Below are positions 12,677 to 26,755 of a stretch of 26,755 nucleotides of DNA, piece after piece; the first letter of the stretch is position 1, and every line of letters starts with the position of its first letter. A program made the position numbers and the translations under genes. The notes below the pieces were generated by a model. That model did no database searches. It saw only the letters and a list, made by a program, of their open reading frames with translations, and was not told the origin of the DNA. Source of the DNA: a virus; the UHGV virus genome UHGV-0229226; one strand, 5' to 3'.

Positions 12677-12823
12677 AATCGGTTTTACCTATCAATCATT
12701 TAATCACATTCCAAAAAAAAGTTTTCGAACCTGCGGCGATGCGAGGAAAGGTCAGGCGGCGGTACTGAGCAGCCAGGGTTGCAGAGATTTGACCCGCCCC
12801 TCCCCTACAGATGGGAAATGTTA
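12677..12823. other. Probable cos / packaging-initiation region
   Basis: In HK97-like phages cos lies between the HNH gene and the small terminase gene; this 147-bp gap is in exactly that position. The cohesive-end sequence itself is not identifiable by eye. Confidence 0.3.
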
Positions 12824-13174: not shown

Positions 13175-13181
13175 AAATACC

Positions 13182-13382
13182 TCATACCCTGTTCGGTTTA
13201 ATGACAGGCTGATTCTCGATATGTTCTGCTGTCAGTCTGAAAGTCACAGTGACTGTTGGTGGCTCGCCTCCGCGTGTCTCTGTCCTGGCGGAAAGCTGCC
13301 CTTCCAGTAACTCACCATTAACTGCAATCCCATACCCTGCGAAATGTTTACCACGATACAGTTTAGCGACCTGAAACTTCAT
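13182..13382 (-). CDS. Hypothetical protein
   Basis: 66-aa ORF directly upstream of the HNH gene on the same strand. No family recognised. Confidence 0.4.
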   Translation of the reverse strand: MKFQVAKLYRGKHFAGYGIAVNGELLEGQLSARTETRGGEPPTVTVTFRLTAEHIENQPVIKPNRV

Positions 13383-13626
13383 AACTCTTCCTTTTAGACA
13401 TGTTAGACGTGAACCTGTCGCACGGCAGAGTCGCCGAAAGTTTACGGTTTACCCAGGCTCACAGCTGAAAGCCTTTCTTAGATGTGCACATGCGATATGC
13501 TTTGAATGAATTATTAAAAACTTTGCTCTTTTTCAAAATTTCGTATCCTGGCTCGTTAATGTTAAAGAATTAAACGTAAGAAAGTAGTATGTTGAATCGC
13601 TTATATCAAAATACATAGGACTCAAA

Positions 13627-14112
13627 ATGCCAGAACTCGTTGATCCAACAGACTCATTAATTAGTTTTCAATACGCCTTTTCTAATGGTCTGATTAAGCC
13701 TTCACCATGCATAGTTCACCCAAATATGAAGGTGCTTTTGGATGATGCAGAGGGTACACCACGGTTTACTTATGCATTCTTTGAAGGAGAAAATGTTAAA
13801 GGTGTTGCTATATATGTCCCTGCAGAGTTTGTTGAAGGTAAACCATGCTTTGGCGTTGGCTATGCAGTAGCTGATGAATATAAAGCGCAAGGCATCGGTA
13901 CTCAACTTCTCATCGCCAGCATTGAAGAAATGCAATACGGATTTAGAAATTCCTTCAATGAATTCTATGTAGAGGCTATTGTCGGGGTTGGTAATCAAGC
14001 CTCCAACAAATTAGCTGCAAAAGTTTTATCTGATACTCCTGAGCCAGGGACAGATTCTTACTCAGGAAAACCTATCAATCAGTACATGAAACTTTTCAAA
14101 ACCACAAAATAA
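13627..14112 (+). CDS. GNAT-like acetyltransferase-fold protein (moron)
   Basis: 161-aa ORF on the strand opposite the late operon. ATG is preceded by AGGA; the segment AQGIGTQLL resembles the GNAT acetyl-CoA binding motif. AT-rich flanks and its own downstream terminator. Confidence 0.5.
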   Translation: MPELVDPTDSLISFQYAFSNGLIKPSPCIVHPNMKVLLDDAEGTPRFTYAFFEGENVKGVAIYVPAEFVEGKPCFGVGYAVADEYKAQGIGTQLLIASIEEMQYGFRNSFNEFYVEAIVGVGNQASNKLAAKVLSDTPEPGTDSYSGKPINQYMKLFKTTK

Positions 14113-14122
14113 CTACCATTCT

Positions 14123-14144
14123 GGCGCAGATTTTTGCGCCTTTT
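14123..14144 (+). terminator. Rho-independent terminator of the GNAT-like gene
   Basis: GGCGC stem / GCGCC stem with an AGATTTTT loop, followed by TTTT, about 10 nt after the stop. Confidence 0.45.
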
Positions 14145-14290
14145 CAGGTTTGCAGTTCACCTGCCACGCTTTGTTATGCGCCTGAATGTCCCGCTTCGTC
14201 TGTTGCATTATCATAAGTAATAGCGTAGGTTGACACCCTGGCTCTCTTTCGCCACCGGCGAATCTTTAGCGGATTATCCTTGGCCGGTTT

Positions 14291-14758
14291 TTATCTGAGA
14301 CATTGCTCACGAATGTATAGCTGTGCCCCTTCCAGTTGCTTCTGCATCGTCATCAACCGTTCTCTGAGGGTGAAATAATCCCGTTCAGCGGTGTCTGCCA
14401 GTCGGGGGCTGGTTGCATTATCCACGCTGGTGGGTCCGGTGGCTTCACGCACGGCTGCGGAGCAACTGGCATTGACCCGCAGGCGCTTACGACCAGCGGC
14501 AACATCAGCGCGCAGGGTTTCATTTTCAGCTTTCGCATTGGCTAATTCTCTCGAGTACTTTGCATCGAGCGCAGCAACATCACGCTGACGCATCTGTATG
14601 TCAGTAATTGCCGCGTTCGCCAGCGTCAGTTCTCTGGCATTTTTGTCGCGCTGGGCTTTGTAGGTAATGGCGTTATCACGGTAATGATTAACAGCCCATG
14701 ACAGGCAGACGATGATGCAGATAACCAGAGCGGAGATAATCGCGGTTACTCTGTTCAT
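14291..14758 (-). CDS. Rz: Rz i-spanin
   Basis: N-terminal transmembrane segment ([18 protein letters not shown]) followed by a charged coiled-coil periplasmic domain. Start taken as MNRV at 14758, overlapping the endolysin stop. Confidence 0.8.
14353..14538 (-). CDS. Rz1: Rz1 o-spanin (outer-membrane lipoprotein) embedded in Rz in another frame
   Basis: 61-aa ORF with a lipobox-type signal (LPLVVSAC) and a proline-rich mature part, lying wholly inside Rz. Confidence 0.75.
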
Positions 14759-15252
14759 TGCTGACCCCACAAACAGATTTCACGCTCAATCTCACGACGA
14801 GTCATGAGACCTTTCCATTGCTTACCGCCAGCATATGTCCAGCGACGTAGCTGATCACATGCGCCTTTGATATCGCCCTGGTTTATTTTGCGAAGAAGCG
14901 TCGATGTTCTGAAATTGCCAGCACCCACGTTGTAAACGAATGAGTAAAGAGCGCCGCGCATTGTTTCCGGTATATCGACTTTGATGTACGGGTTAATTTG
15001 TCTGGCGACCGTGGCAAGGTCTTTATTCAGGAGGGCTTTGCATTCTGCTTTGGTATACGTTTTACCGAGCATGATGTCTTTTCCTGTATGCCCGTGACAT
15101 ACAGTCCATACACCAACAATATCTTTGTATGGTATGTAGCTGACACCTTCCAGACCATCGTTACCACTTGGGCCAGTGATTAACACTGATGCTATAGCAA
15201 TTGCTCCGCCACCAATAGCAGCAGCAACGGCTTTTCGTAATGATGGAGGCAT
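14755..15252 (-). CDS. R: SAR endolysin (phage 21 R-type lysozyme)
   Basis: 165 aa with a Gly/Ala-rich signal-anchor-release segment at the N-terminus ([20 protein letters not shown]) and a T4-lysozyme-like catalytic region (LEGVSY...KD...T). Very close to phage 21 R as I recall it. Confidence 0.9.
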
Positions 15253-15467
15253 TATTCACCTCTCGCAGCCTTGCGCTTATCTTCTTTAATCTTGAAATAA
15301 AGGTTTGTCAGGTACGTCAGCAGGCCAAATACCAGGCTACCCAGCACACCTATTGCCGCCCACTGTGAGGGCGTGACTTTATCGAGCAACTGTAAAAACC
15401 AGTACCCGGCACTACCTGCTGAGGTACCATAGGCGACACCCGTTGTTAACTTATCCATGGATTTCAT
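15252..15467 (-). CDS. S: Class II holin (pinholin, S21-type) with dual-start motif
   Basis: 71 aa, [26 protein letters not shown]..., two transmembrane domains, Met1 and Met4 dual start, charged C-terminus. Matches phage 21 S. Confidence 0.85.
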
Positions 15468-15593
15468 AACCCCACCTCGCAGACAAAGCGGGTGTAAATT
15501 AAGGGGATACTACGTATCGCAATAAAGGCAGAAACGTAACAGATTCGGAGTCAGTGAATAACTCAGGTATTGGGTTATCAGCTAATATCGAGA

Positions 15594-15629
15594 CTCAAAA
15601 AATGGAAAAACCCGCTCGACGGCGGGTTT
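15594..15629 (-). terminator. Rho-independent terminator about 140 nt upstream of the holin
   Basis: CCCGC-CGTCGA-GCGGG hairpin followed on the minus strand by TTTTTCCATTTTTT. A candidate tR'-type late terminator, or a terminator shielding the late operon from upstream transcription. Confidence 0.45.
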
Positions 15630-16055
15630 AAGCTGTGTGACGAAGTAACCACTCTTAACAGCATAACCAATTTTTTACGTACGTAAACTACTAAATGATA
15701 TTTGTGAGAATGCCACCGAGTGTTCAAAACACCACCACAAATGCATAAGAAAACTTCAACAAATAACCAGTTAATAATTTCCGATGTTATTTTTAGTTTG
15801 TTTAAATTAAGCTAAAGAATTATAGAGCACTTATAAATAAGTGCCATTAATATAAATTAGCTAATAGATTTATTTTTGTTCAGACAAGAGCCATGAATAG
15901 GATTAGATAGAAAAGGTTCAGATAAAAATAGAGATCTACTTCACAAATTAAATGAGAAACTAAAACTTACATCTTGAAATAATCACATTGATTAGATGAA
16001 TATTTATCGCGCAGTGACATCATTTTTTAATAATAGTTCAAAAAAAGGGCGTACA

Positions 16056-17138
16056 ATGAAAAAATTAACAGTGGCAATTTCTGCTGTAGCTGCATCAGTA
16101 CTGATGGCGATGTCTGCTCAGGCAGCTGAAATTTATAATAAAGACAGTAACAAGCTGGATCTATACGGGAAAGTTAATGCCAAGCACTACTTCTCCTCTA
16201 ATGATGCAGATGATGGTGATACTACTTATGCCCGTCTTGGCTTCAAAGGTGAAACCCAAATCAACGATCAACTGACTGGTTTCGGTCAGTGGGAATATGA
16301 ATTCAAAGGCAACCGTGCTGAATCTCAAGGTTCTTCCAAAGACAAAACCCGTCTTGCATTTGCAGGCCTGAAATTTGGTGATTACGGCTCAATCGATTAC
16401 GGCCGTAACTACGGTGTAGCATACGACATCGGTGCGTGGACTGACGTTCTGCCAGAATTCGGTGGTGATACCTGGACCCAAACAGATGTGTTCATGACTG
16501 GTCGCACTACTGGTGTTGCAACTTATCGTAACAACGACTTCTTTGGTCTGGTCGATGGCCTGAACTTTGCTGCTCAGTATCAGGGTAAAAATGACCGCAC
16601 TGACGTAACTGAAGCCAATGGTGATGGTTTCGGTTTCTCCACTACTTATGAGTATGAAGGATTCGGCGTGGGTGCAACCTATGCTAAATCAGATCGCACT
16701 GACGGTCAGGTCGCCTATGGTAAGAGCAAATTCAATGCCTCCGGCAAAAATGCGGAAGTATGGGCTGCAGGCCTGAAATATGATGCGAACAATATCTATC
16801 TGGCTACCACATATTCTGAAACTCAGAATATGACCGTTTTTGGTAATAACCATATTGCAAACAAAGCACAAAACTTTGAAGCAGTAGCACAATATCAGTT
16901 TGACTTCGGTCTGCGTCCATCTGTTGCTTACCTTCAGTCAAAAGGTAAAGACCTTGGTGTTCATGGTGACCGAGACTTAGTCAAGTATGTCGATGTCGGT
17001 GCTACTTACTACTTTAATAAAAACATGTCCACTTTTGTTGATTACAAAATCAACTTAATTGACGATAGTAAGTTTACCAAAACAGCTGGTATTGATACCG
17101 ACGACATCGTCGCTGTAGGTCTGGTTTATCAGTTCTAA
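16056..17138 (+). CDS. nmpC: Outer-membrane general porin (OmpC/OmpF family; phage-borne NmpC/Lc-like)
   Basis: Signal peptide [23 protein letters not shown] then [23 protein letters not shown]..., ending in the aromatic ...VAVGLVYQF typical of porins. Start taken at the internal ATG 16056, which has a AAGGG Shine-Dalgarno. Confidence 0.9.
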
Positions 17139-17148
17139 TCTGACTTAC

Positions 17149-17189
17149 GAAAAAGATATGTTGCGGGAGGCTTTGCCTCCGCAACATAT
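17149..17189 (-). terminator. Long inverted-repeat hairpin with U-run on the minus strand (candidate tR'-type terminator)
   Basis: ATATGTTGCGG(G)AGGC ... GCCTCCGCAACATAT, a ~15-bp stem, followed on the minus strand by CTTTTTCG. Lies about 140 nt downstream of Q. Confidence 0.5.
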
Positions 17190-17275
17190 AAGTGGAGCCC
17201 TCAAGCCACTTCCTTTAGAAGCACTACCTTGCTTCTTACTATATAAACCTTCTGTTATATATTACCCTTTATTTT

Positions 17276-17300
17276 GGGGGCGTTTCCACGCCCCATTTTT
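17276..17300 (+). terminator. Plus-strand rho-independent terminator downstream of the porin gene
   Basis: GGGGCGT-TTCC-ACGCCCC followed by ATTTTT on the plus strand. Confidence 0.45.
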
Positions 17301-17326
17301 AATAACTTTTAGTAAACAATTGCATA

Positions 17327-17710
17327 TCAATTAGAATTATTAGCAACGATATCCATATCTAACCGGATATCTAATGCCATTAACATCCCTTCAATTATGC
17401 CCTCAGCCTTCTGTAACCTTTTCCCGATATAACCATCCGAGCAGCAATGCTTACTTGCCAGTGACATGAATGTCATACCACATACATAATAATCTACTAA
17501 TAAATCGTGTAAATCGCTGTTGTTCTTTTTCAGACGGGCCATGCACCCGCAAATGATCATCGCGTCATCGTCACAACATTGCGGGCGAGATTTTACTTTT
17601 GAAGGAATTAATCCCTTAAAACCGGCGGCAATGGACGACCAGGTCACATCTTCATGATTATTAGCCGCCCACGCACCCCAACGCTCAAGAACCATCTGAA
17701 TATCACGCAT
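17327..17710 (-). CDS. Q: Late-gene antiterminator Q (DLP12 QuuD-like)
   Basis: [26 protein letters not shown]...[16 protein letters not shown]... matches my memory of the DLP12 Q-like antiterminator. ATG at 17710 has a GGAG Shine-Dalgarno; the ORF-track start at 17725 is a TTG. Confidence 0.85.
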
Positions 17711-17795
17711 CAACTTACTCCACAAAAATCAGACCAGAACGCCAATTACAAGCAAAAATCAACAAAACAGTATTAGTTGATTGTTATCTCTGACT

Positions 17796-17918
17796 TCATA
17801 CTCCTGTTCCTGTCAGGGTTTTGGCGTAATTCTTCAGTATTCGGTAATCGGTCAAAACAGAACCGAGGAAACGATATAAGCGCAGACGCCCCCAGCGGTG
17901 GCGAAGAAGTTCTGCCAT
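17796..17918 (-). CDS. Small ORF (40 aa) between rusA and Q, ylcG-like
   Basis: ATG at 17918, MAELLRHRWGRLRLYRFLGSVLTDYRILKNYAKTLTGTGV. Below the ORF-track size cut-off. Same position as ylcG in DLP12. Weak Shine-Dalgarno. Confidence 0.35.
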   Translation of the reverse strand: MAELLRHRWGRLRLYRFLGSVLTDYRILKNYAKTLTGTGV

Positions 17919-17932
17919 ATTAAACTCAAACA

Positions 17933-18295
17933 TCATTCATTCCCCATTTCGGTGATGGTCAGTTCCAGCCTCCCACCTTTGGTAACAGGCATCTTCACAA
18001 CGCGGTAATCAACGACCTGAGCATCATCCAGCCAGAAACCTGCTTTAGTGAGTGCGTCAAAAGCGGCTTTTTGCAGATTATCCAGGTCACGGCGACGGCG
18101 ATCCGGCATGTGGCACTCAATGCGGATTTTCACAGGCATAGCCAGGCCGATATCCAGCATTGCGTTTTTAATGATTCGGGCGACGTTATCGCGGTATGCC
18201 TGCCCCTCTGCGCTGACGTGCGTGCGCCCGCGATTATGGCGGTAATAGCGATTATTGCTCGGAGGCCAGGGTAATGTGATGCTGTAGGTATTCAC
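17933..18295 (-). CDS. rusA: Holliday junction resolvase RusA
   Basis: 120 aa; the motifs [13 protein letters not shown] and ...[28 protein letters not shown] are typical of RusA. GTG start overlaps the stop of the upstream remnant (GTGA). Confidence 0.9.
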
Positions 18296-18420
18296 GCCTT
18301 AATAACCCCCTCTTTCAGCCACATAACCTGTGTTCTCGCCATACCTTCCAGCGCGCATTCTTTTGCATATGCAGCATCGACTTGCTTGGCATGCCCTTTA
18401 CCGGCAATCTTCTGTATGCG
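18292..18420 (-). pseudogene. 3' remnant of a ybcO-like (DUF1364-type) gene
   Basis: In the frame coupled to the rusA start, 42 codons read [42 protein letters not shown], resembling the C-terminus of prophage YbcO as I recall it. Two in-frame stops (TAG at 18421-18423 and 18427-18429) and no start codon precede it. Confidence 0.4.
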
Positions 18421-18501
18421 CTAAACCTAGATAGAATCCACTCTGTGCACATTGAAGCCCGCTCTATGCTTTCTTTCAGGTATTGAAGGGATTGAGATGG
18501 G

Positions 18502-18849
18502 CTAAGCATTATTGGCCTCCTGCATCAGGAGAAAGACAATCATGGCGGCGCGGAGAGGTCTGGTATCAAATATTGGGCTTACGCCTTTTGCATCCACACA
18601 CCATTCAGTTAACTGGTCTAAGATAGAAATCCTGTATTTCTCAATAATCGGCCATGAAGCGCTCGGATCATTGCAGTAGTCAGGCAAATGATTTAATGGC
18701 TCAAAAGTTGTATCAGCATTTCCGTAATACCATTTGTTGGTGTTATTCCCTGATGTTTCCGGTTTACTTGCCCAAAGGCCTTTAAAAATTATGTCTCCTA
18801 CCATTCTGTTAATTTCAAAATCACTTAACTGTGAATAATCCATTGTCAT
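18502..18849 (-). CDS. Hypothetical nin-region protein
   Basis: ORF 18502..18885; the likely start MTMDYSQL at 18849 overlaps the ninE stop (ATGA). No confident family assignment. Confidence 0.5.
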
Positions 18850-19022
18850 TTCCTCGCACGATATCTTAGCCACCGGATATCCCACAGGTGGGCTGTGTAA
18901 TTGAAGGTTTTTACGTCAGATTCTTTTGGGATTAGCTTGCGTTTATTTCTGGAGCGTTTCGTTGGAAGGTATTTGCAGTTTTCGCAGATTATGTCGGTGA
19001 TGCTTCGTCGCTGTCGTCTCAT
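18846..19022 (-). CDS. ninE: NinE-family protein
   Basis: 58 aa from the ATG at 19022 (overlapping the methylase stop): [58 protein letters not shown], matching what I recall of lambda NinE. Confidence 0.6.
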
Positions 19023-19546
19023 GCAGCCCTCCTGACGCCCTGCCCGATCGCCATCAATGCCGCTTTGGATACGGTAGTAAACATCCGTCGAGGACTGATG
19101 AACGGTCGCCAAATCAGCAGCATGGAGCCTTTGCTGTTTCCCTTCTTCTCCAGCCCTGTCGATGGTTCGATAAAATTAATCCGTCCATCAGTGATAATAC
19201 GAACTTCGTCAACACTCTCCAGAGCCTTGCTGAACCATCCGACAGACATATCCTCTGGCACAAGCATCACTACCGTCTGTCGCTGTTGTATACACTGCTC
19301 AGCGGCTTTTTCCACCCACGGCCTGATATTGCTGTACGGTGGGTTATTCCAGATTGCACCGTGGCTTACCCACTCAGAATTGAGCGCGTCGTCGTCCTCA
19401 GTTAGCCAGTGAGCGCACAGAGCATTTTTGTCGCTCGCTGCCGAATCCAGCCAGAATCCAAACTCAATATCCAGTGCATCAAAAAGCCAAAGCGGCGTTT
19501 GCCAGCAGTCCTTGTCGTGTGCTGGCGTATTTGATTTGATAGTCAT
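19019..19546 (-). CDS. Phage DNA N6-adenine methyltransferase (Dam-like)
   Basis: From the ATG at 19546 (ATGA overlap with the ninB stop): [26 protein letters not shown]...WNNPPYS..., with the NPPY catalytic motif of N6-adenine methyltransferases. Confidence 0.8.
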
Positions 19547-19983
19547 GCAGCCCGATCTCCCCATCGCGCTTTCCATTCGAGAGCCAGTCGCGCTTCGTCT
19601 GACCACTTAACGCCACGCTCTGTACCGAATGCCTGTATAAGCTCTAATAGCTCCGCAAATTCGCTTACACGCATCCTGCTGGTTGACTGGCCTATTACCA
19701 CAAAGCCATTCCCGGCAAGGTTAGGAACAACATCCTGCTGCTTTAATGCTGCGGTAAACACACACTTCCAGCTTTCTGCATCCAGCCAGCGACCATGCCA
19801 TTCAACCTGACGAGAGACGTCACCTAAGCAGGCCCATAGCTTCCTGTTTTGGTCTAAGCTGCGGTTGCGTTCCTGAATGGTTACTACGATTGGTTTGGTT
19901 GGGTCTGGAAGGATTTGCTGTACTGCGTGAATAGCGTTTTGCTGATGTGCCGGAGATCGAATTTCAAAGGTTAGTTTTTTCAT
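19543..19983 (-). CDS. ninB: Recombination protein NinB
   Basis: MKKLTFEIRSPAHQQNAIHAVQQILPDPTKPIVVTIQERNRSLDQNRKLWACLGDV... is essentially lambda NinB. ATG at 19983 has a GGGGAG Shine-Dalgarno. Confidence 0.85.
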   Translation of the reverse strand: MKKLTFEIRSPAHQQNAIHAVQQILPDPTKPIVVTIQERNRSLDQNRKLWACLGDVSRQVEWHGRWLDAESWKCVFTAALKQQDVVPNLAGNGFVVIGQSTSRMRVSEFAELLELIQAFGTERGVKWSDEARLALEWKARWGDRAA

Positions 19984-19999
19984 GACTTCCCTCTCCCCC

Positions 20000-20031
20000 A
20001 AATAAAAAGGCCTGCGATTACCTGCAGGCCT
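20000..20031 (-). terminator. Rho-independent terminator between ren and ninB (tR2-like)
   Basis: AGGCCTGC ... GCAGGCCT 8-bp stem followed on the minus strand by TTTTTATTT. This is the position of lambda tR2. Confidence 0.55.
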
Positions 20032-20056
20032 GTTATTAGCTCAGTGATGTAGATGG

Positions 20057-20347
20057 TCATCTTTTAACTCCATATACCGCCAATATCCGTTTCATCGTGG
20101 CACTCTGGCGACACTCCTTAAAAATCAGGTTCGTGCTCATCTTTCCTTCCCGTTCTTCCTTGGTAGCAAACCGGTAATACACCGTTCGCCAGACCTTACC
20201 TTCGATAACCAGAAGACCTGCCCGTGCCATTTTAGCCGCGGCCTGATTTATGCTGGTTACTGTTGCGCCTGTTAGCGCGGCAACGTCCGGCGCACAGAAG
20301 CTATTATGCGTCCCCAGGTAATGAATAATTGCCTCTTTGCCCGTCAT
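20057..20347 (-). CDS. ren: Ren protein
   Basis: 96 aa, MTGKEAIIHYLGTHNSFCAPDVAALTGATVTSINQAAAKMARAG..., near-identical to lambda Ren as I recall it. Confidence 0.85.
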   Translation of the reverse strand: MTGKEAIIHYLGTHNSFCAPDVAALTGATVTSINQAAAKMARAGLLVIEGKVWRTVYYRFATKEEREGKMSTNLIFKECRQSATMKRILAVYGVKR

Positions 20348-21045
20348 ACACTTGCTCCTTTCAGTCCTAACTTAGCTTTAATTTCTGCGATCTTCGCCAG
20401 CGCCTGAACACGATTTAGAGGTCTGCCGCCCATGACAGGAAGTTGTTTTACTGGTTCAGGTATCGTCTCACCACGGTTAATTCGCGCTGTCATACAGGTC
20501 AGTTCATCGGCAGCCTTGCGTCGTAATTCCGCGTCAGTCAGCGCATTGGCCCGCATGTTCTGGTACAGGTTGGTAACCAGCCAGTAGTGCGCGTTCGATT
20601 TCCACGGATAAGACTCTGCATCCGGATACAGGCCTCGCTTCCGGCAATACTCGTAAACCATATCAACCAGCTCGCTGAGGTTTGGCAGTCCGGCGATAAC
20701 GGATGCTTCTTCCCGGCACCATGCAACAAACTGCCCGGGTGATGGCAGAAATGGTCGATTCTGCCGACGGGCTACGCGCATTCCTGCGTTAACCTGTTCC
20801 ATTGTGGTGATCCCGTTTTCCCGGAAAGCCAGAACCCACTGGCGGCGGATTTCGTTCAGTTCGTTCTGGTCACGGTTAGCCAGACTCGCCGGGAAAGTTG
20901 CCAGTAACTGGCTGAACACACCGTTGATGATCTGCGCTACCTGCTGTACCTGCGGCTTTTCGTCGTACTGTTCCGGCATGTTGTTGGCGATCCGACGCAT
21001 CTGCTCACGGTCAAAATTAACCATCTGTGCGGCGATGTTTTTCAT
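20344..21045 (-). CDS. P: Replication protein P (DnaB helicase loader)
   Basis: 233 aa, MKNIAAQMVNFDREQMRRIANNMPEQYDEKPQVQQVAQIING..., near-identical to lambda P. Confidence 0.95.
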   Translation of the reverse strand: MKNIAAQMVNFDREQMRRIANNMPEQYDEKPQVQQVAQIINGVFSQLLATFPASLANRDQNELNEIRRQWVLAFRENGITTMEQVNAGMRVARRQNRPFLPSPGQFVAWCREEASVIAGLPNLSELVDMVYEYCRKRGLYPDAESYPWKSNAHYWLVTNLYQNMRANALTDAELRRKAADELTCMTARINRGETIPEPVKQLPVMGGRPLNRVQALAKIAEIKAKLGLKGASV

Positions 21046-21941
21046 AAATCCACCCCGTAAATCCAGTCAGTGTTTGTCAGGTCGAGTTTTGGTTTGCAGG
21101 CTGTCACACCTGCCTGTTGCTTGTTACGGTTGATTTCGAGCTGGGTCCACTTGTCGCGGAGTTTGGCCGGGCTCAGCACGTTACCGGACCAGAAGTTGTC
21201 CTGGCATGCCCAGCGGAACAGTACACACATGTCGCGATGGTTACGTCCGTCACGTTCACGCATCAGGCGGATATCGTTAGCCCACCCTGCAAAATTCGGT
21301 TTTCTGGCTGATGGCGCGATGGTCTTCACCATGTCAAACATCCATTCTGCGGCGGTCAGGTCTTCTGCTGTCCCCCACTTGCTGCCGCTCTGAATTGCAG
21401 CATCCGGTTTCACCACAGAAAGGTCGTTTTCTGGCTGGTCAGAGGATTCGCCAGAATTCTCTGACGAATAATCTTTTCTTTTTTCTTTTGTAATAGTGTC
21501 TTTTGTGTCCCCCTGTTTTGAGGGATAGCAATCCCCCAATTTGAGGGATGTTTTATCCCTCGTTTTAGGGGATTTTCCCTCGTTTTGAGGGATACACCAT
21601 TCTGAGATGTTTTTATTTGGTCCAAACATGCCGCCTTGCTGCTTGATAATATTCATTCTGACGAGTTCTAACTTGGCTTCATTGCACCGTTTGACGGGTA
21701 ACTTTGTAATCTCGCTAAGTTGAGAATCGGTGATTCTGTCCATTGGTTTATTCCATCCATAGGTTTTACGCAGAATGGCAAGCAGCACTTTAAACTGTCG
21801 CTTGGTCAGATCTGCGCCTGAATAAGCCTCAAGCAGCATATTTGATAGTCTGGCGTAACCATCATCGAGATCTGCCACATTACGCTCCTGTTTGGCAAAG
21901 TTACCTCTGCAGAAGTTGAGTATTTTTGCTGTATTTGTCAT
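21042..21941 (-). CDS. O: Replication initiator protein O
   Basis: 299 aa, MTNTAKILNF...GADLTKRQFKVLLAILRKTYGWNKPMDRITDSQLSEITKLPVKRCNEAKLELVRMNII..., near-identical to lambda O. Contains the ori iterons. Confidence 0.95.
   Translation of the reverse strand: MTNTAKILNFCRGNFAKQERNVADLDDGYARLSNMLLEAYSGADLTKRQFKVLLAILRKTYGWNKPMDRITDSQLSEITKLPVKRCNEAKLELVRMNIIKQQGGMFGPNKNISEWCIPQNEGKSPKTRDKTSLKLGDCYPSKQGDTKDTITKEKRKDYSSENSGESSDQPENDLSVVKPDAAIQSGSKWGTAEDLTAAEWMFDMVKTIAPSARKPNFAGWANDIRLMRERDGRNHRDMCVLFRWACQDNFWSGNVLSPAKLRDKWTQLEINRNKQQAGVTACKPKLDLTNTDWIYGVDL
21450..21595. repeat. Replication origin (ori-lambda type): four ~19-bp iterons plus adjacent AT-rich region, inside the O gene
   Basis: Four iterons of the lambda ori consensus type at about 21508-21526, 21531-21549, 21555-21573 and 21576-21594 (tccccctgttttgagggat, atcccccaatttgagggat, atccctcgttttaggggat, tccctcgttttgagggata). 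The AT-rich tract at 21450-21505 lies downstream in the O reading direction. Confidence 0.85.
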
Positions 21942-21973
21942 AATGACTCCTGTGGATTGATCCAGTAATGACC

Positions 21974-22270
21974 TCAGAATTCCATCTGGATTTGTTCAGA
22001 ACGCTCGGTTGCCGCCGGGCGTTTTTTATTGGTGAGTCCATCAAGCGCATACTTAAAAGCCCTGCTAATCGGACTGATGTCTGATGCCATTCCGAAAGCA
22101 CACAAGACCGAAGCAATAAATCTCCAGTCCGTTCTGCTTATCTTCGATTCATGACAGCCAATCATCTTTGCCAGACCGCGCTGGGTAATAGCTGACAGAT
22201 TGATAAGTAAATCTGTTTCTGCGCGATCAACGTCACGCTGTGATAGTTTGCTGTAACTTGTTCTTTCCAT
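21974..22270 (-). CDS. cII: Transcriptional activator CII
   Basis: 98 aa in the cro-cII-O order. The C-terminus ...TNKKRPAATERSEQIQMEF matches the lambda CII C-terminus; the N-terminal half diverges. Confidence 0.8.
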   Translation of the reverse strand: MERTSYSKLSQRDVDRAETDLLINLSAITQRGLAKMIGCHESKISRTDWRFIASVLCAFGMASDISPISRAFKYALDGLTNKKRPAATERSEQIQMEF

Positions 22271-22355
22271 TTCTTAAGATTTCCAATAGTGAATAGTTAG
22301 TTGAAAGGTATGCGTGGAAACGCATATGGCCTTAGTTGGTCAGATATCTTGGAAC

Positions 22356-22401
22356 TCGCTTTTCAGCGACGTAGGACGAATGTCCGTTGTTACAAAGAGC
22401 G
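22356..22401 (-). promoter_or_regulatory. nutR: boxA-like CGCTCTTTG plus boxB hairpin TCGCT-GAAA-AGCGA
   Basis: On the minus strand just after the cro stop: CGCTCTTTGTAA (plus 22390-22401), then about 20 nt on the hairpin TCGCTGAAAAGCGA (plus 22356-22369). Spacing and boxB loop match the nutL candidate at 25036-25081. Confidence 0.5.
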
Positions 22402-22411
22402 GATCCGCTTA

Positions 22412-22627
22412 TTAAGCGGCTTTGTGTTCCGGCGGGAACACGTCATCAAGACTGACTTTTGCGCCTAACTTGTTTAGGCACGCAACAAGAGCACGGCATG
22501 TTTTAAGGTCTGGGAAGCGACGACCAGATTCCCAATGTCCGATAGCTCCCTGTGTGCATCCAACTGCCTTAGCAAGTGTTGTTTGAGAGATATTCAGTGA
22601 CTCTCGATATTTTCGTAGGTTGCTCAT
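22412..22627 (-). CDS. cro: Cro repressor (HTH)
   Basis: 71 aa from the ATG at 22627, which has a GGAGG Shine-Dalgarno: MSNLRKYRESLNISQTTLAKAVGCTQGAIGHWESGRRFPD..., a helix-turn-helix. Divergent from cI. The longer ORF-track ORF would run across the operator region. Confidence 0.8.
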   Translation of the reverse strand: MSNLRKYRESLNISQTTLAKAVGCTQGAIGHWESGRRFPDLKTCRALVACLNKLGAKVSLDDVFPPEHKAA

Positions 22628-22744
22628 ATGCCCTCCATAGTAAACACGAATAAAAAAATACAATATGTACTTTGCGAATACAAGTAAAAATACACATTGT
22701 GCATGGATGGTTCCAGTACAGAGCGTAATAATAAGGACATGAAA
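22628..22744. promoter_or_regulatory. Immunity-region control region (OR operators with PR and PRM), inferred
   Basis: 117-bp AT-rich gap between divergent cro and cI. It contains the palindrome CACATTGTG and AGTAC-type half-sites like those near PL. Exact operators and promoters are not resolved by eye. Confidence 0.45.
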
Positions 22745-23398
22745 ATGAAATGGTATGAACTGGCTAGATCCAGAATGAAAGAGCTCGGCATAACTCAAGA
22801 GAAGTTAGCCGAAGAGCTAGGTATGACGCAGGGTGGGATTGGACACTGGTTGCGCGGATCTCGTCATCCATCTCTTAGTGATATTGGTGTGGTGTTTAAA
22901 TACCTTGGTATTGATAACATATCATTCAACCACGACGGGACATTTTCACCTGTTGGCGAATACTCATCGGCCCCAGTTAAAAAACAATATGAGTACCCTG
23001 TTTTTTCTCATGTTCAGGCTGGGATGTTCTCTCCAGAACTCAGAACCTTTACCAAAGGCGATGCGGAGAGATTGGTAAGCACAACCAAAAAAGCCAGTGA
23101 CTCTGCATTCTGGCTTGAGGTTGAAGGTAACTCAATGACCGCACCAACAGGTTCCAAACCCAGCTTTCCTGACGGGATGTTAATTCTGGTTGACCCTGAG
23201 CAAGCTGTTGAGCCCGGCGATTTCTGCATAGCCAGACTTGGTGGTGATGAATTTACCTTCAAGAAACTGATCAGGGATAGCGGTCAGGTGTTTCTACAGC
23301 CACTAAACCCACAATACCCAATGATCCCATGCAATGAGAGTTGTTCCGTTGTGGGGAAAGTTATCGCCAGCCAATGGCCTGAAGAGACGTTTGGGTGA
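22745..23398 (+). CDS. cI: CI-type prophage repressor (HTH plus S24 LexA-like autopeptidase domain)
   Basis: N-terminal HTH ([23 protein letters not shown]) and C-terminal S24 domain with the catalytic Ser in GNSM and the Lys in FKKL. Start is 22745 (best Shine-Dalgarno spacing) or 22739; the ORF-track start 22697 is a TTG inside the operator region. Confidence 0.85.
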
Positions 23399-23437
23399 TG
23401 AAACCACTTTTATCTACAATTTACAGGGCGGTAAACA

Positions 23438-23995
23438 TTGGCAAAAATAGATGATTATCAGCCAAGCCAAGTAGAAGTTGATAAAGTACTTTATTGTAAA
23501 AAAATAGTTAACTTTTCTGGCGTTAAATGGAAACAGAAACCAAGTCGCTCTGATATGTGGCTACAAGCCCATATCATCCCCTTGGATGAGGATTGTATAC
23601 CTATACAAGGGCTAAAGTTTGAACTGAAATGGAAACCAGATCAGGATTCAGAACCTGATGACCCGATTTCTTACCCTAAAATAAATATTATTGCTTTCTA
23701 TCATAACAAGAGGGTTTTCGCGGTAGATACCTATCACTTTGACAAACACACGAATAGTTACAAGGTCGATCATCCGAAGTACCAAGATATCATTTACGGT
23801 GCTCACTACCATGTATACTATGAAGAAGCTGGATACTATAGTGATAGAATAGCGTTTCCAATCGAAGATGACATAAACCCAGATGACCTGGTAGGGTATT
23901 GGAATTACTTCTGTAAACATCTGAACATAACTTACTCTGGGAGAATACCTTTACCGCTTGAAGATGAGTCGGGGCAAATGGGGTTTGGAATATGA
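23438..23995 (+). CDS. Hypothetical protein, first gene of the cassette in the rexAB position
   Basis: 185-aa ORF 40 nt after cI on the same strand. Soluble, rich in Tyr, Asp and His, with no motif I recognise. Low-GC codon usage. Its stop overlaps the next start (ATGA). Exact start codon is uncertain (see findings). Confidence 0.6.
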   Translation: MAKIDDYQPSQVEVDKVLYCKKIVNFSGVKWKQKPSRSDMWLQAHIIPLDEDCIPIQGLKFELKWKPDQDSEPDDPISYPKINIIAFYHNKRVFAVDTYHFDKHTNSYKVDHPKYQDIIYGAHYHVYYEEAGYYSDRIAFPIEDDINPDDLVGYWNYFCKHLNITYSGRIPLPLEDESGQMGFGI

Positions 23996-24744
23996 TGTGC
24001 TCAACAGTGATCTCACAACTAGGTTTCGAATGCCATCCAATAGGCAAGACCTTGAGAATTATCAGTCCATTCACTTACTGTGATGATGGAGAGCATGTCG
24101 GTGCCTTTATCCGTGAAGTCAATGGTAGGTATTTAGTTAGTGACAGATGCGATGCCTTAATGAATATGGAGGCAAGAGGGATCTCGCTTACCAAAAAACG
24201 ACTTGATGAGATACGACAATTACTGCTTAAAGAAGGCGCAGAACTCAATGCTCGAGGAGAAATCATTGCTTGGGCAACAGAAAAGGATGTCGGTGCGATT
24301 ACATCGAACATAATTAGAGCTGGTATACTCGCATCAACTTTGTCGTTAGACTGGTATCAGCCAGTTCAAGCTGAAAAGTTTGAAAGTATGGTTATTGATT
24401 ATCTATATCACACAGAGCTTAGAGACGCACTTTCTCTTCGTGAAAACGTATATGGCTTGAGTGGACATCAAATTACCGTCCCTGTAACAATAAAAACCGA
24501 CATACCTAAATACGTTTTTACATCAAGCGTGAAACACGGAGGAAGCTGGAATAGTGCTTACTCATTGCTTGGGAAACTAATTGATCTTAAAGCTTCAAGT
24601 GAGGAGTATAACAACAGATTTGTTGTTATAGACAGCGAAGCAATTGGTGATCAAATGCAACAACTCTCCTTACTCTTCCATGAATCAAGCCAAGTTCTAC
24701 CATTCTCCAAAAGAGAGACTTGGGTTAAGAGACTTGCAGCATAA
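23992..24744 (+). CDS. Hypothetical protein, second gene of the cassette in the rexAB position
   Basis: 250-aa ORF translationally coupled to the previous gene and followed by a strong terminator. No recognisable family. Low GC. Confidence 0.65.
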   Translation: MMCSTVISQLGFECHPIGKTLRIISPFTYCDDGEHVGAFIREVNGRYLVSDRCDALMNMEARGISLTKKRLDEIRQLLLKEGAELNARGEIIAWATEKDVGAITSNIIRAGILASTLSLDWYQPVQAEKFESMVIDYLYHTELRDALSLRENVYGLSGHQITVPVTIKTDIPKYVFTSSVKHGGSWNSAYSLLGKLIDLKASSEEYNNRFVVIDSEAIGDQMQQLSLLFHESSQVLPFSKRETWVKRLAA

Positions 24745-24748
24745 TACA

Positions 24749-24775
24749 ACCCGGCCTCAGCGCCGGGTTTTCTTT
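24749..24775 (+). terminator. Rho-independent terminator ending the cI-cassette operon
   Basis: ACCCGGC-CTCAGC-GCCGGGT, a 7-bp GC stem, followed by TTTTCTTT, 5 nt after the stop of the second cassette gene. Confidence 0.6.
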
Positions 24776-24948
24776 GCCTCACGTTCGCCCACCTAAAAAC
24801 ACATAACCAATTATATTTATTGAAAAATAAATAGATGCAACCCACTAAACCACGCAATTCTGATCTCTCCTTACATCGCCGAGGCAATACATCCACGCTA
24901 AAAAACAACACTATTAAATACAAAGCGTTATAAAAAACCACGCCAACT

Positions 24949-24991
24949 TACAACAAATTGTATTGATCTTGTAAAGTACATATCGTACTAT
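24949..24991 (+). promoter_or_regulatory. Candidate OL operators and PL promoter
   Basis: Palindromes TACAACAAATTGTA (24949-24962) and AGTACATATCGTACT (24975-24989) overlap a plausible promoter, TTGATC, 17 bp, TACTAT, pointing toward N. Confidence 0.4.
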
Positions 24992-25035
24992 TTAACCGTC
25001 AGCAGGACGCTGGAAGCCAAATGGAACAGACTGGC

Positions 25036-25081
25036 AGGCTCTTTAAACAACGTCGACTCTCGACTACGTGGCTGAAAAGCC
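25036..25081 (+). promoter_or_regulatory. nutL: boxA-like GGCTCTTTAA plus boxB hairpin TGGCT-GAAA-AGCCA
   Basis: boxA-like sequence at 25036-25045 and the hairpin TGGCTGAAAAGCCA at 25068-25081, about 100 nt upstream of N. Same architecture as the nutR candidate. Confidence 0.5.
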
Positions 25082-25180
25082 AGATCACCCAACCACATAA
25101 GCTGTGGGATGCAATGCCGAAGCAACCGTCTCAGGAGGAGCTTCGAGATTGCATCGCCAAAGTTTATTCGGGAGGAATCC

Positions 25181-25453
25181 ATGTCCAGAAAAACAGAATT
25201 TAAAGGCACCGCAGCTTCTCGCCGTAGAGCTCGTCGCGCAAATCTGCAAAGTCAGGAGGCGATCAGCTCCGACAAGCTACACAGGCCAACCCCTTCACGA
25301 GTGGTCTTGCAATGCAAGCTCAAACCAGCAATGAGAGCAGAAGTGATAACTCTGACAACGTTGACCAGAAAATATGAAGGTTCAACTTGTCTTCCGAACG
25401 TAGCTCTTTACGCGGCAGGCTACCGGAAATCAAAACAACTGACGGCGAGATGA
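25181..25453 (+). CDS. N: Early antiterminator N (arginine-rich motif)
   Basis: 90 aa from the ATG at 25181, which has a GGAGGA Shine-Dalgarno. N-terminal arginine-rich motif GTAASRRRARRANLQ. Sits downstream of PL/nutL, in the lambda position relative to cI. Confidence 0.75.
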   Translation: MSRKTEFKGTAASRRRARRANLQSQEAISSDKLHRPTPSRVVLQCKLKPAMRAEVITLTTLTRKYEGSTCLPNVALYAAGYRKSKQLTAR

Positions 25454-25469
25454 TAAATTCATTTGCTAA

Positions 25470-26051
25470 TTACTTGTTTTTGCCATGCTTATCCTGAGCG
25501 ATAAGTTCATCCATAAGGCTGTCTGCCTTCCCGGCAAACCTAATGTAGCACTCATGTCTATAGCTTTCAGGGATAACGAAACGGTCGGTATCAGGATATC
25601 CAACAGCAGGAGGCCTTCGAACGAGGAGTCCTTTTTTGAGCAATGAAATTGATTCATGAGCGCCCTTTTCCGTTTGTAGCTGGTTATTAGCGGCTACAGC
25701 GAATGCCAAATACGCTCTTTCTCCAAGAGTTAACGAATCAAACAAATCTTGCACATATTTTTCTTCTTTAGATTTGCGCTTCTGAGCAGCGAATACCTCA
25801 ATTCTTTCAGTCACAGCGTGATAAGCGGAATTAACAACGCCGTTAAGCACATAGCTAACGCAAAACAACAGGATGTAATACATCCAGTAATGAGGAAGGA
25901 TTTCTGGACTATGCAGGTTTATCCATTCTTTTACGCTTACCGGCATAACAATAATCAATATGATCAGGATGATTAGCATATGAATCAACTGTTTAAGTGT
26001 CATTCCTTGCAGGAAAAAATGCATTAGTTCCTGCCACCATGAGTTGTTCAT
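25470..26051 (-). CDS. sieB: Superinfection exclusion protein B-like membrane protein
   Basis: 193 aa with an N-terminal hydrophobic segment (LIHMLIILIILIIVMPV), a second hydrophobic segment, and a C-terminal soluble domain. Convergent with N and located between N and ral, exactly as sieB is in lambda. Confidence 0.55.
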   Translation of the reverse strand: MNNSWWQELMHFFLQGMTLKQLIHMLIILIILIIVMPVSVKEWINLHSPEILPHYWMYYILLFCVSYVLNGVVNSAYHAVTERIEVFAAQKRKSKEEKYVQDLFDSLTLGERAYLAFAVAANNQLQTEKGAHESISLLKKGLLVRRPPAVGYPDTDRFVIPESYRHECYIRFAGKADSLMDELIAQDKHGKNK

Positions 26052-26194
26052 CGGCGTTTCTCTTTTGCTCTCTGTAGGGGTGAATAGAGTTTATCCGATT
26101 TCTCGTTGTAGGGGTACACGAGAACCACCGAGCCTGATGTGGTTAAAAGACAGGCACAATCTTTACTACCGCAATCCACTATTTAAGGTGATAT

Positions 26195-26281
26195 ATGGAA
26201 GAAGAATTTGAAGAGTTCGAAGAGCATCCTCAAGATGTGATGGAACAATACCAGGACTATCCGTATGACTACGACTATTGA
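26195..26281 (+). CDS. Small acidic protein (lambda orf28-like)
   Basis: 28 codons, MEEEFEEFEEHPQDVMEQYQDYPYDYDY, with an AAGGTG Shine-Dalgarno; overlaps the ral start. Below the ORF-track cut-off. Confidence 0.5.
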   Translation: MEEEFEEFEEHPQDVMEQYQDYPYDYDY

Positions 26282-26465
26282 TACAAATCAATGGTGTGGA
26301 CAATTCAAACGATGCAATGGATGCAAGCTGCAATCGGAATGCATGGTTAAGCCTGAAGAAATGTTTCCTGTAATGGAAGATGGGAAATATGTCGATAAAT
26401 GGGCAATACGAACGACGGCAATGATTGCCAGAGAACTTGGTAAACAGAACAACAAAGCTGCCTGA
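26265..26465 (+). CDS. ral: Restriction alleviation protein Ral
   Basis: 66 aa, MTTTIDTNQWCGQFKRCNGCKLQSECMVKPEEMFPVMEDGKYVDKWAIRTTAMIARELGKQNNKAA, near-identical to lambda Ral as I recall it. Confidence 0.85.
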   Translation: MTTTIDTNQWCGQFKRCNGCKLQSECMVKPEEMFPVMEDGKYVDKWAIRTTAMIARELGKQNNKAA

Positions 26466-26511
26466 TAGTGGCCTTTATTTTTGGCATAAATAACAGAATA
26501 AACACTGCACT

Positions 26512-26539
26512 GTGTATTCATTCCAACGAGTGAATACAC
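26512..26539 (+). repeat. Perfect 9-bp inverted repeat GTGTATTCA ... TGAATACAC
   Basis: Arms at 26512-26520 and 26531-26539 with a 10-nt spacer, in the gap downstream of ral. Could be an RNA hairpin or a protein-binding palindrome. Confidence 0.5.
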
Positions 26540-26601
26540 GGAGCAATGTCGCTCGTAACTAAACAGGAGCCGACTTGTTCTGATTATTGGAAATCTTCTT
26601 T

Positions 26602-26629
26602 GCCCTCCAGTGTGAGGGCGATTTTTTAT
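26602..26629 (+). terminator. Rho-independent terminator downstream of ral
   Basis: GCCCTC-CAGTGT-GAGGGC hairpin followed by GATTTTTTAT. Confidence 0.5.
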
Positions 26630-26647
26630 CTATGAGGATATGAATAG

Positions 26648-26755
26648 ATGTCAAACATCAAAAAATACATCATTGATTACGACTGGAAAGCATCAATAGA
26701 AATTGAAATTGACCATGACGTAATGACAGAGGAAAAACTTCACCAGATTAATAAT
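26648..26755 (+). CDS. Hypothetical protein, partial (continues beyond the window end)
   Basis: ATG at 26648 preceded by GAGGA; reads MSNIKKYIIDYDWKASIEIEIDHDVMTEEKLHQINN... and is open to the window end. AT-rich. Not lambda cIII. Confidence 0.4.
   Translation, partial: MSNIKKYIIDYDWKASIEIEIDHDVMTEEKLHQINN

What the first reader, a model, noticed from the sequence alone, without database searches (positions are those of the whole stretch)
25470..26465. Host-interaction accessory cluster next to N: sieB, orf28 and ral
The window carries a SieB-like membrane protein (superinfection exclusion, convergent with N) and a Ral restriction-alleviation protein preceded by a 28-codon acidic ORF that overlaps the ral start. 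Together with the cassette after cI and the Dam-like methylase in the nin region, this prophage encodes several layers of exclusion and anti-restriction functions within 8 kb.
Basis: partly seen in the sequence, partly recalled or inferred. Interest (0 to 1): 0.4.

Follow-up and report, generated by a model that had tools for sequence, protein, structure and literature searches.

The report
Known sieB, orf28 and ral genes
This stretch holds three accessory genes already known from phages lambda and P22: a superinfection-exclusion gene, a tiny acidic gene, and an anti-restriction gene. The stretch is identical to sequenced E. coli phages and prophages, so it is correct but ordinary.

Summary

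- **sieB:** window 25470-26051 (-) encodes a 193-aa SieB (Pfam PF14163, 77.7 bits). It is convergent with N (25181-25453, +).
- **orf28:** 26195-26281 (+) is 28/28 residues identical to lambda orf28. It overlaps ral by 17 nt.
- **ral:** 26265-26465 (+) is 65/66 identical to lambda Ral.

The segment 25000-26755 is 100% identical to Escherichia phages ev017 and PhiR57_1. The sieB-to-ral module is present in 288 of 5,426 complete E. coli genomes, including CFT073. It is therefore already known.

- **SieB type:** it is P22-type (81.7% identical to P22 SieB, 21% to lambda SieB). It keeps the in-frame Esc start at Met25.
- **sas RNA:** the spacer between sieB and orf28 (26047-26172, +) is 122/127 identical to the P22 antisense RNA sas and covers the P22-homologous sieB promoter.
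- **Cassette behaviour:** sieB, its promoter and sas occur together or not at all.
- **orf28 is a real gene:** it is conserved at a fixed length and position upstream of ral in about 150 of 163 Ral-encoding loci, with pN/pS about 0.10. Deposited annotations usually omit it, and its function is unknown.

All functions are inferred by homology. Interest is low.

The parts
25181..25453 (+). N antiterminator gene (context). It is the first gene of the pL operon, and transcription from it runs on through the antisense strand of sieB into orf28-ral.
   Evidence: Pfam PF25694 N_peptide at 112.5 bits and phrog_271. Annotated as N in PhiR57_1. A GGAGG Shine-Dalgarno sequence precedes the ATG.
25470..26051 (-). 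sieB, a P22-type superinfection exclusion protein B of 193 aa. It has a strongly hydrophobic N-terminal segment at about residues 20-42.
   Evidence: PF14163 at 77.7 bits (cut-off 26). phrog_1301 at E = 1.2e-121, full length. 81.7% identical to P22 SieB and 21% identical over 82 aligned residues to lambda SieB. Hydropathy. 100% identical to ev017 and PhiR57_1.
25470..25979 (-). esc, the in-frame N-terminally truncated product of sieB that starts at Met25. [quoted passage not shown]
   Evidence: P22 record BK000583 annotates esc starting 72 nt into sieB, at codon 25. The DNA around that ATG is identical in the window (alignment A1). Met25 is present in 16 of 16 distinct P22-type SieB peptides.
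26088..26118 (-). sieB promoter (PsieB), placed by homology to the mapped P22 promoter. The inferred transcription start is near 26081, which gives a 5' UTR of about 30 nt.
   Evidence: P22 promoter 29690-29720 and RNA start site 29727 were projected through alignment A1, with one mismatch in the promoter stretch. Not tested experimentally here, and the consensus sigma-70 scan does not call it.
26047..26172 (+). sas-like antisense RNA region. It is complementary to the sieB start codon, the 5' UTR and the promoter.
   Evidence: 122 of 127 positions are identical to the P22A-sas RNA sequenced in infected cells (sequence from PMC13397905; alignment). It is present in 34/34 P22-type and 12/12 lambda-type sieB loci and in 4/117 others.
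26195..26281 (+). orf28, a 28-codon highly acidic ORF that overlaps the ral start by 17 nt. It is a genuine conserved coding gene of unknown function.
   Evidence: 28/28 identical to lambda orf28. phrog_16060 at E = 7e-19. A 28-codon ORF sits at -70..+17 relative to ral in about 150 of 163 Ral-encoding loci. pN/pS = 0.10, and polymorphic sites fall 19/6/6 at codon positions 3/1/2. An AAGGTGA Shine-Dalgarno sequence lies at 26185-26191.
26265..26465 (+). ral, the restriction-alleviation protein of 66 aa. It carries a conserved W-C-x5-C-x-G-C-x5-C motif.
   Evidence: PF11058 at 162.5 bits, covering 1-66 of the 66-residue model. 65/66 identical to lambda Ral. W10, C11, C17, G19 and C20 are invariant and C26 is at least 80% conserved in 43 distinct Ral peptides.
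26600..26621 (+). Terminator-like hairpin followed by a T-run, between ral and ea10 (context).
   Evidence: Consensus scan: 8-bp stem with 5 GC pairs, then TTTTTTAT. Function not tested.

Best explanation
This is the standard lambdoid pL-operon accessory region, read here in reverse orientation. It combines two modules that are each known from model phages.

**Module 1: a P22-type sieB cassette.**
- sieB is transcribed from its own promoter, on the opposite strand to pL, so it can be expressed in the lysogen.
- Full-length SieB is a membrane-anchored protein that aborts the lytic growth of superinfecting heteroimmune lambdoid phages. Macromolecular synthesis stops midway through the cycle.
- The same reading frame also yields Esc from Met25. 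Esc is a truncated form that inhibits SieB.
- The antisense RNA sas covers the sieB start codon and 5' UTR but not the Esc start. During the phage's own lytic growth, sas therefore switches translation from SieB to Esc and prevents self-exclusion.

**Module 2: orf28-ral.**
- This pair is transcribed from pL under N antitermination.
- Ral makes type IA restriction-modification enzymes (EcoKI/EcoBI class) methylate unmodified DNA faster, so phage genomes are modified rather than cut.
- orf28 is a conserved 28-residue acidic protein whose stop codon lies 17 nt inside ral. It is most likely translated and translationally coupled to ral. Its own function is unknown.

**What is shown here:** gene identities, their arrangement, conservation of the regulatory elements, and purifying selection on orf28.

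**What is inferred from the lambda and P22 literature:** every functional step.
For: **Identity**
- Family matches from Pfam and PHROGs.
- Ral is 65/66 and orf28 is 28/28 identical to lambda.
- SieB is 81.7% identical to P22 SieB.
- The DNA of 25000-26755 is 100% identical to phages ev017 and PhiR57_1.
- The module 25454-26650 is found at 80% coverage or more in 288 of 5,426 complete E. coli genomes, where PGAP annotates it as SieB and Ral.

**Layout**
- The order N, sieB (opposite strand), orf28, ral, ea10 matches lambda. P22 has the same N-homologue (gene 24), sieB, ral order, though its records do not annotate orf28 and other genes follow ral instead of ea10.

**Regulatory elements**
- The window aligns to P22 at 93% identity across the promoter, RNA start, sieB start and esc start.
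- The sas region is 122/127 identical to sequenced P22 sas.
- The sas region co-occurs strictly with sieB.

**Function from the literature**
- SieB stops macromolecular synthesis midway through the lytic cycle (PMC10883804).
- sas switches translation between the SieB and Esc peptides (PMC12197685; PMC7067206).
- Esc inhibits SieB (PMC3224144).
- Ral speeds first-strand methylation by type IA enzymes through the HsdM N-terminal domain (PMC12707154).
- ral is conditionally essential on hosts with an active type I system (PMC10695390).

**orf28 as a coding gene**
- 38 haplotypes give pN/pS = 0.10. Stops occur in the other two frames in 36-38 of 38 haplotypes. ORF length and the overlap with ral stay constant as Ral identity falls to 66%.
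Against: - No function was tested here.
- The origin of sas is unresolved. The consensus scan found no sigma-70-like promoter on the + strand upstream of 26047, so sas could be a processed piece of the pL transcript rather than a primary transcript.
- The sas region does not fold more stably than shuffled sequence (z = -0.47), and no Rfam family matches it.
- The exclusion spectrum of a P22-type SieB in an E. coli host is not documented in the papers I could read.
- The pN/pS estimate uses non-independent haplotype pairs from recombining phages.
Confidence: 0.93

Rival explanations
1. orf28 is not a protein-coding gene. On this view it is a chance small ORF, or a nucleotide-level regulatory leader for ral (for example mRNA structure or the 3' flank of sas) that happens to be open.
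For: It is only 28 codons long and of low complexity. Pfam, NCBIfam and PADLOC have no model for it. The ev017, PhiR57_1, P22 and PGAP annotations omit it. Knockdown in lambda gave no plaque phenotype (PMC10695390).
Against: The ORF keeps exactly 28 codons and the same -70..+17 position in about 150 of 163 loci, while Ral diverges to 66% identity. Substitutions are mostly conservative (E/D, F/I/L, Y/F/H). pN/pS = 0.10, with 19 of 31 polymorphic sites at codon position 3. The other two frames are closed. A strong AAGGTGA Shine-Dalgarno sequence precedes the ATG.
Confidence: 0.1
2. The sieB copy here is a non-functional passenger: a Salmonella-phage gene carried by recombination into an E. coli phage where it no longer excludes anything.
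For: The closest characterised relative is from Salmonella phage P22. sieB is absent from most Ral-carrying relatives (44-49 of the 80 closest loci), so it is dispensable.
Against: The ORF is intact, and the Met1 and Met25 starts, promoter and sas region are all conserved. 34 full-length copies at 80-100% identity were found, with stops in only 2 of 16 distinct peptides. The exact module is maintained in 288 complete E. coli genomes and in isolated phages.
Confidence: 0.08
3. Ral is the short 40-aa product annotated in the ev017 and PhiR57_1 records, starting at the internal Met27. On that model orf28 would not overlap it.
For: The deposited annotations give a 123-nt ral CDS.
Against: The Pfam Ral model aligns to residues 1-66 of 66. 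The N-terminal 26 residues carry the invariant W10, C11, C17, G19 and C20. Lambda and P22 records annotate the full-length form from the same ATG. An AGGA sequence lies 8 nt upstream of the 26265 ATG.
Confidence: 0.04

Closest known systems
Salmonella phage P22 sieB/esc/sas locus (Ranade & Poteete 1993; record BK000583)
   Same: SieB is 81.7% identical over 191 aa, and the DNA is 93% identical across promoter, 5' UTR and gene. The Esc start is at the same codon 25. The sas region is 122/127 identical. The position between the N homologue (gene 24) and ral, on the opposite strand, is the same.
   Different: The host is Escherichia rather than Salmonella. The protein is 193 aa rather than 192 aa, with divergence concentrated in the middle and C-terminal parts of the protein. 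The neighbouring N gene and immunity region are of a different type.
Phage lambda sieB (lambdap48)
   Same: Same Pfam family, same genomic slot and orientation. The upstream promoter and sas-like DNA are shared from window position 26072 onward.
   Different: The protein is only 21% identical over 82 aligned residues. The homology breakpoint lies inside the sieB 5' UTR, so the coding cassette has been swapped.
Phage lambda orf28-ral (lambdap47 and lambdap46)
   Same: orf28 is 28/28 and Ral is 65/66 identical. The 17-nt overlap is the same, and ea10 follows as in lambda.
   Different: One Ral substitution (K7T). Nothing else of note.
Escherichia phages ev017 and PhiR57_1, and the CFT073 / ABU 83972 prophages
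   Same: 100% nucleotide identity over 25000-26755 to the two phages, and over 25454-26650 to the prophages.
   Different: The window joins this early region to a phi467-like structural module. No phage record holds 80% or more of window 1-25000, and no complete E. coli genome holds 80% or more of the stretch 11500-17500 that spans the junction.

Membership tests
SieB (Pfam PF14163; P22/lambda superinfection exclusion B) | Sequence match to the family model above the curated threshold | tested here: met
   77.7 bits against a cut-off of 26, E = 9e-22. phrog_1301 at E = 1.2e-121. 81.7% identity to P22 SieB.
SieB (Pfam PF14163; P22/lambda superinfection exclusion B) | N-terminal hydrophobic membrane segment | tested here: met
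   Kyte-Doolittle 19-residue windows reach 3.03 around residues 22-40. A second, weaker hydrophobic stretch at about 54-74 did not pass the 1.6 threshold.
SieB (Pfam PF14163; P22/lambda superinfection exclusion B) | Located between N and ral on the strand opposite to pL, with its own promoter | tested here: met
   The gene order and strands match lambda and P22. The P22 promoter and RNA start align with one mismatch. Promoter activity was not tested.
SieB (Pfam PF14163; P22/lambda superinfection exclusion B) | Nested in-frame Esc start and the sas antisense RNA (P22-type self-immunity) | tested here: met
   Met25 is conserved. The sas region is 122/127 identical to sequenced P22 sas. Expression was not tested.
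SieB (Pfam PF14163; P22/lambda superinfection exclusion B) | Abortive exclusion of superinfecting heteroimmune phages | not testable with these tools
   This needs plating or burst assays with a sieB clone or lysogen.
Ral (Pfam PF11058; lambda restriction alleviation) | Full-length match to the family model and to lambda Ral | tested here: met
   162.5 bits against a cut-off of 25, covering 1-66 of 66. 65/66 identical to lambda Ral.
Ral (Pfam PF11058; lambda restriction alleviation) | pL-operon position downstream of N and upstream of ea10/cIII | tested here: met
   The ea10 start lies at 26649.
Ral (Pfam PF11058; lambda restriction alleviation) | Alleviates restriction and enhances modification by type IA R-M enzymes | not testable with these tools
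   Known for lambda Ral (PMC12707154; PMC10695390). Inferred here from 98% identity.
lambda orf28 (phrog_16060) | 28-codon acidic ORF overlapping the ral start | tested here: met
   28/28 identity to lambda orf28. The 17-nt overlap is visible in the sequence.

The most novel reading that the evidence does not exclude
orf28 is a translated acidic microprotein that works together with Ral. Possible roles include tuning Ral synthesis through translational coupling, acting as a Ral chaperone or partner, or contacting the HsdM or DNA-binding surface of type I enzymes itself. On this reading the real anti-restriction unit of lambdoid phages is a two-gene orf28-ral pair, not ral alone. The evidence supports only that orf28 is under purifying selection and is almost always linked to ral. 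It stays intact in 9 loci where ral has an internal deletion, which could instead point to an independent role.
Probability: 0.25. Interest if true: 0.4.

Novelty: already known. Interest (0 to 1): 0.1.

Why it matters
Very little is at stake. These are textbook lambda and P22 accessory genes in a sequence identical to published phages and to common E. coli prophages.

Three points have practical value:
1. **Annotation.** Public records of the identical phages truncate Ral, omit orf28, and do not mark esc or sas.
2. **Cassette swapping.** An E. coli lambdoid phage carries the P22-type sieB/esc/sas unit. The homology breakpoints lie at window 26072 (against lambda-type loci) and 26171 (against loci with no sieB), which shows cassette-level swapping.
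3. **orf28.** It has gone uncharacterised since the lambda sequence was published, yet it is clearly under purifying selection and linked to ral. That makes it a cheap target for a follow-up experiment.

Tried and rejected
- **Rfam scan of 24700-26755 at E <= 1.** The only hit was a chance snoR126 match (24 bits against a gathering score of 39, E = 0.19). No family exists for sas.
- **Folding the sas region.** MFE -32.6 kcal/mol, z = -0.47 against shuffles, so there is no evidence for unusual stability.
- **Promoter and terminator consensus scan.** It found no sigma-70-like site that could drive sas and did not call PsieB. The single promoter-like hit lies inside sieB on the - strand (26003-25975) and overlaps the Esc ATG, so I treat it as chance.
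- **PADLOC.** No hits for SieB, Ral or orf28.
- **NCBIfam.** No hits for any of seven proteins tested.
- **PDB sequence search.** Nothing for Ral or SieB at E <= 1.
- **Primary papers not held.** Ranade & Poteete 1993 (J Bacteriol and Genes Dev) and the lambda ribosome-profiling paper could not be read. Details of sas biogenesis and the SieB target range therefore rest on reviews and my memory.
- **Literature searches.** Searches for work on orf28 found only strain lists and an essentiality table, and one spelling variant returned nothing. A separate search for the DUF1828/DUF6978 cassette found nothing relevant.
- **A faulty first pass on orf28 conservation.** It assumed ungapped offsets and produced frame-shifted nonsense. 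It was redone correctly.
- **Not run.** I did not run the large protein-database searches or structure prediction, because identity was already settled.

Full report
**Observation**

- A 193-aa ORF lies on the - strand at 25470-26051.
- A 28-codon ORF lies at 26195-26281 (+). Its product is MEEEFEEFEEHPQDVMEQYQDYPYDYDY.
- A 66-codon ORF lies at 26265-26465 (+). Its ATG sits 17 nt before the stop of the 28-codon ORF.
- The N gene (25181-25453, +) ends 16 nt from the stop codon of the 193-aa ORF, so the two are convergent.

**Identity of the genes**

- **SieB.** The 193-aa protein matches Pfam SieB (PF14163, 77.7 bits, cut-off 26). It matches phrog_1301 over its full length (E = 1.2e-121).
- **Ral.** The 66-aa protein matches Pfam Ral over all 66 model positions (162.5 bits).
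- **orf28.** The 28-aa peptide matches phrog_16060 (E = 7e-19).
- **Comparison with lambda.** Ral is 65/66 identical and orf28 is 28/28 identical. SieB is only 21% identical over 82 aligned residues.
- **Comparison with P22.** A tblastn search of phage records shows the SieB here is the P22 type. It is 81.7% identical to P22 SieB and 91% identical to the VT1-Sakai copy.

**How common the sequence is**

- DNA of 25000-26755 is 100% identical to Escherichia phages ev017 and PhiR57_1.
- The module 25454-26650 is found at 80% coverage or more in 288 of 5,426 complete E. coli genomes, including CFT073 and ABU 83972. PGAP names the genes there 'super-infection exclusion protein B' and 'antirestriction Ral family protein'.
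- The finding is therefore a correct reading of known genes.

The P22 record BK000583 annotates four features: a sieB promoter, an RNA start site 31 nt upstream of the ATG, sieB itself, and an in-frame esc CDS starting at codon 25. The window aligns to this P22 stretch at 93% identity, with near-complete identity from ral through the first 250 nt of sieB. Projecting the P22 features onto the window gives:
- PsieB at about 26088-26118 (-).
- A transcription start near 26081.
- esc at 25470-25979 (-).

Met25 is present in all 16 distinct P22-type SieB peptides I collected.

A 2026 small-RNA study gives the sequence of the P22 antisense RNA sas (127 nt) (PMC13397905). Window 26047-26172 (+) matches it at 122 of 127 positions. 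This RNA is complementary to the sieB start codon, 5' UTR and promoter, but not to the Esc start.

Reviews state three relevant points:
- sas switches translation between the two sieB-encoded peptides (PMC12197685; PMC7067206).
- Esc inhibits SieB (PMC3224144).
- SieB stops macromolecular synthesis midway through the lytic cycle of superinfecting P22-like phages but not of P22 itself (PMC10883804).

I could not read the primary Ranade & Poteete papers. Whether sas has its own promoter or is processed from the pL transcript is left open. The consensus scan finds no sigma-70-like site upstream of 26047 on the + strand.

**sieB behaves as a swappable cassette**

I classified the 80 IMG/VR loci whose Ral is closest to the window's.
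- 18-20 carry the P22-type sieB.
- 11-12 carry the lambda type.
- 44-49 carry neither. In one of these, L008, a lambda-type N and a 47-codon ORF directly precede orf28.

Homology to the window begins at 26045 in P22-type loci. It begins at 26072 in lambda-type loci, which is inside the sieB 5' UTR, so the promoter and most of sas are shared. It begins at 26171 in loci without sieB.

Across all 163 loci, sas-like DNA is present in 34/34 P22-type loci, 12/12 lambda-type loci and 4/117 others. So sieB, its promoter and sas travel as one unit.

**orf28 is a real gene**

I used 163 Ral-encoding loci: two IMG/VR scans seeded with the window's Ral and with P22 Ral, plus lambda, P22 and the window itself.
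- About 150 loci have a 28-codon ORF at exactly -70 to +17 relative to the ral ATG, even where Ral identity has fallen to 66%.
- Substitutions are mostly conservative (E/D, F/I/L, Y/F/H).
- For the 23 codons that do not overlap ral, 38 distinct haplotypes give pS = 0.467 and pN = 0.072, a ratio of 0.10.
- Polymorphic sites fall 19, 6 and 6 at codon positions 3, 1 and 2.
- The two other frames contain stops in 36-38 of 38 haplotypes and give ratios above 1.
- Ral itself gives ratios of 0.11-0.18 on the same loci.
- P22 encodes an orf28 peptide identical to the window's, with three synonymous differences (read from alignment A1). The P22 records do not annotate it.

Caveats: the haplotype pairs are not independent, and these phages recombine.

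A reverse search with a degenerate orf28 DNA pattern found a Ral motif downstream in 107 of 117 assessable loci. Of the 10 exceptions, nine carry the same internal ral deletion and one has nonsense mutations in ral. orf28 remains open in these (28 codons in nine loci, 26 in one).

In lambda, knockdown of orf28 gave no plaque defect (PMC10695390). I found no functional study.

**Ral**

Among 43 distinct Ral peptides, W10, C11, C17, G19 and C20 are invariant, and C26 is conserved in at least 80%. This pattern suggests a small metal-binding knuckle, but that is inference. No solved structure matches by sequence.

The mechanism is taken from the literature. Ral accelerates methylation of unmodified sites by type IA enzymes, and sensitivity maps to the HsdM N-terminal domain (PMC12707154). 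ral becomes important for plating only on hosts with an active type I system (PMC10695390).

The 40-aa Ral annotated in the ev017 and PhiR57_1 records is almost certainly a truncated gene call.

**The wider claim of layered defences within 8 kb**

- The Dam methylase is real (PF05869, 218.6 bits, 19019-19606).
- A Ren-like gene is annotated at the equivalent of 20057-20347.
- The two-gene cassette after cI (23438-23995 and 23992-24744) matches DUF6978 below the Pfam threshold and DUF1828 above it. It gives only weak hits to the PADLOC candidate models PDC-M24A and PDC-M24B (E = 4.8e-4 and 4.7e-10). Its defence role is a hypothesis only.
- The window contains no attachment site or host flank, so 'prophage' is not shown. 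The same module occurs both in isolated phages and in chromosomes.

**Verdict**

Novelty is 'already known'. Interest is low at 0.1.

The only open thread is the function of orf28. The most novel reading not excluded is that orf28 and ral form a two-gene anti-restriction unit. I give that a probability of about 0.25 and moderate interest if true.

Noticed in passing
window 23438-24744 (+), with a hairpin at 24748-24769: A two-gene cassette sits directly after cI, in the position rexAB occupies in lambda. It consists of a 185-aa DUF6978-like protein (below the Pfam cut-off) and a 250-aa DUF1828 protein, joined by an ATGA overlap and followed by a terminator-like hairpin. It gives only weak hits to the PADLOC candidate models PDC-M24A and PDC-M24B. 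I found no literature on it.
   Followed up: partly
window 15996-17138 (+): A full-length OmpC/NmpC-type porin gene (PF00267, 504 bits) lies between Q (17327-17725, -) and the lysis genes. It is on the opposite strand, like a lysogenic-conversion moron.
   Followed up: no
window 19019-19606 (-) and 20057-20347 (-): A phage Dam methyltransferase (PF05869) lies in the nin region. A Ren-like gene is also present (annotation of ev017), even though this phage has no rexAB for Ren to counter.
   Followed up: partly
window 1-14300 versus 14328-26755: The window is a mosaic. The structural and terminase module is about 96.5% identical to phi467-type phages, while the early and lysis region is 99.6-100% identical to ev017 and PhiR57_1. 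No phage record holds 80% or more of window 1-25000, and no complete E. coli genome holds 80% or more of the stretch 11500-17500 that spans the junction.
   Followed up: partly
L001 (PhiR57_1), L086 (ev017), L003/L084/L085 (P22): Public annotations of identical or near-identical sequence are inconsistent. Ral is called as a 40-aa fragment in ev017 and PhiR57_1. N is truncated to 40 aa in ev017. orf28 is omitted in all of these records, and sas is not annotated in any P22 record I viewed.
   Followed up: yes
L178, L181, L182, L186, L230, L234, L272, L274, L281 (IMG/VR loci): A recurrent internal deletion of ral joins about codon 13 to the 3' end out of frame, while orf28 upstream stays open. 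The same variant probably explains the 'Lambda_ev...' phage records that matched only 59% of the query.
   Followed up: partly
window 25038-25064 (+): A putative nutL lies upstream of N. It has a boxA-like GCTCTTTAA (25038-25046) followed by a short hairpin GTCGACTCTCGAC (25052-25064). This was identified by eye and from the hairpin scan only.
   Followed up: no
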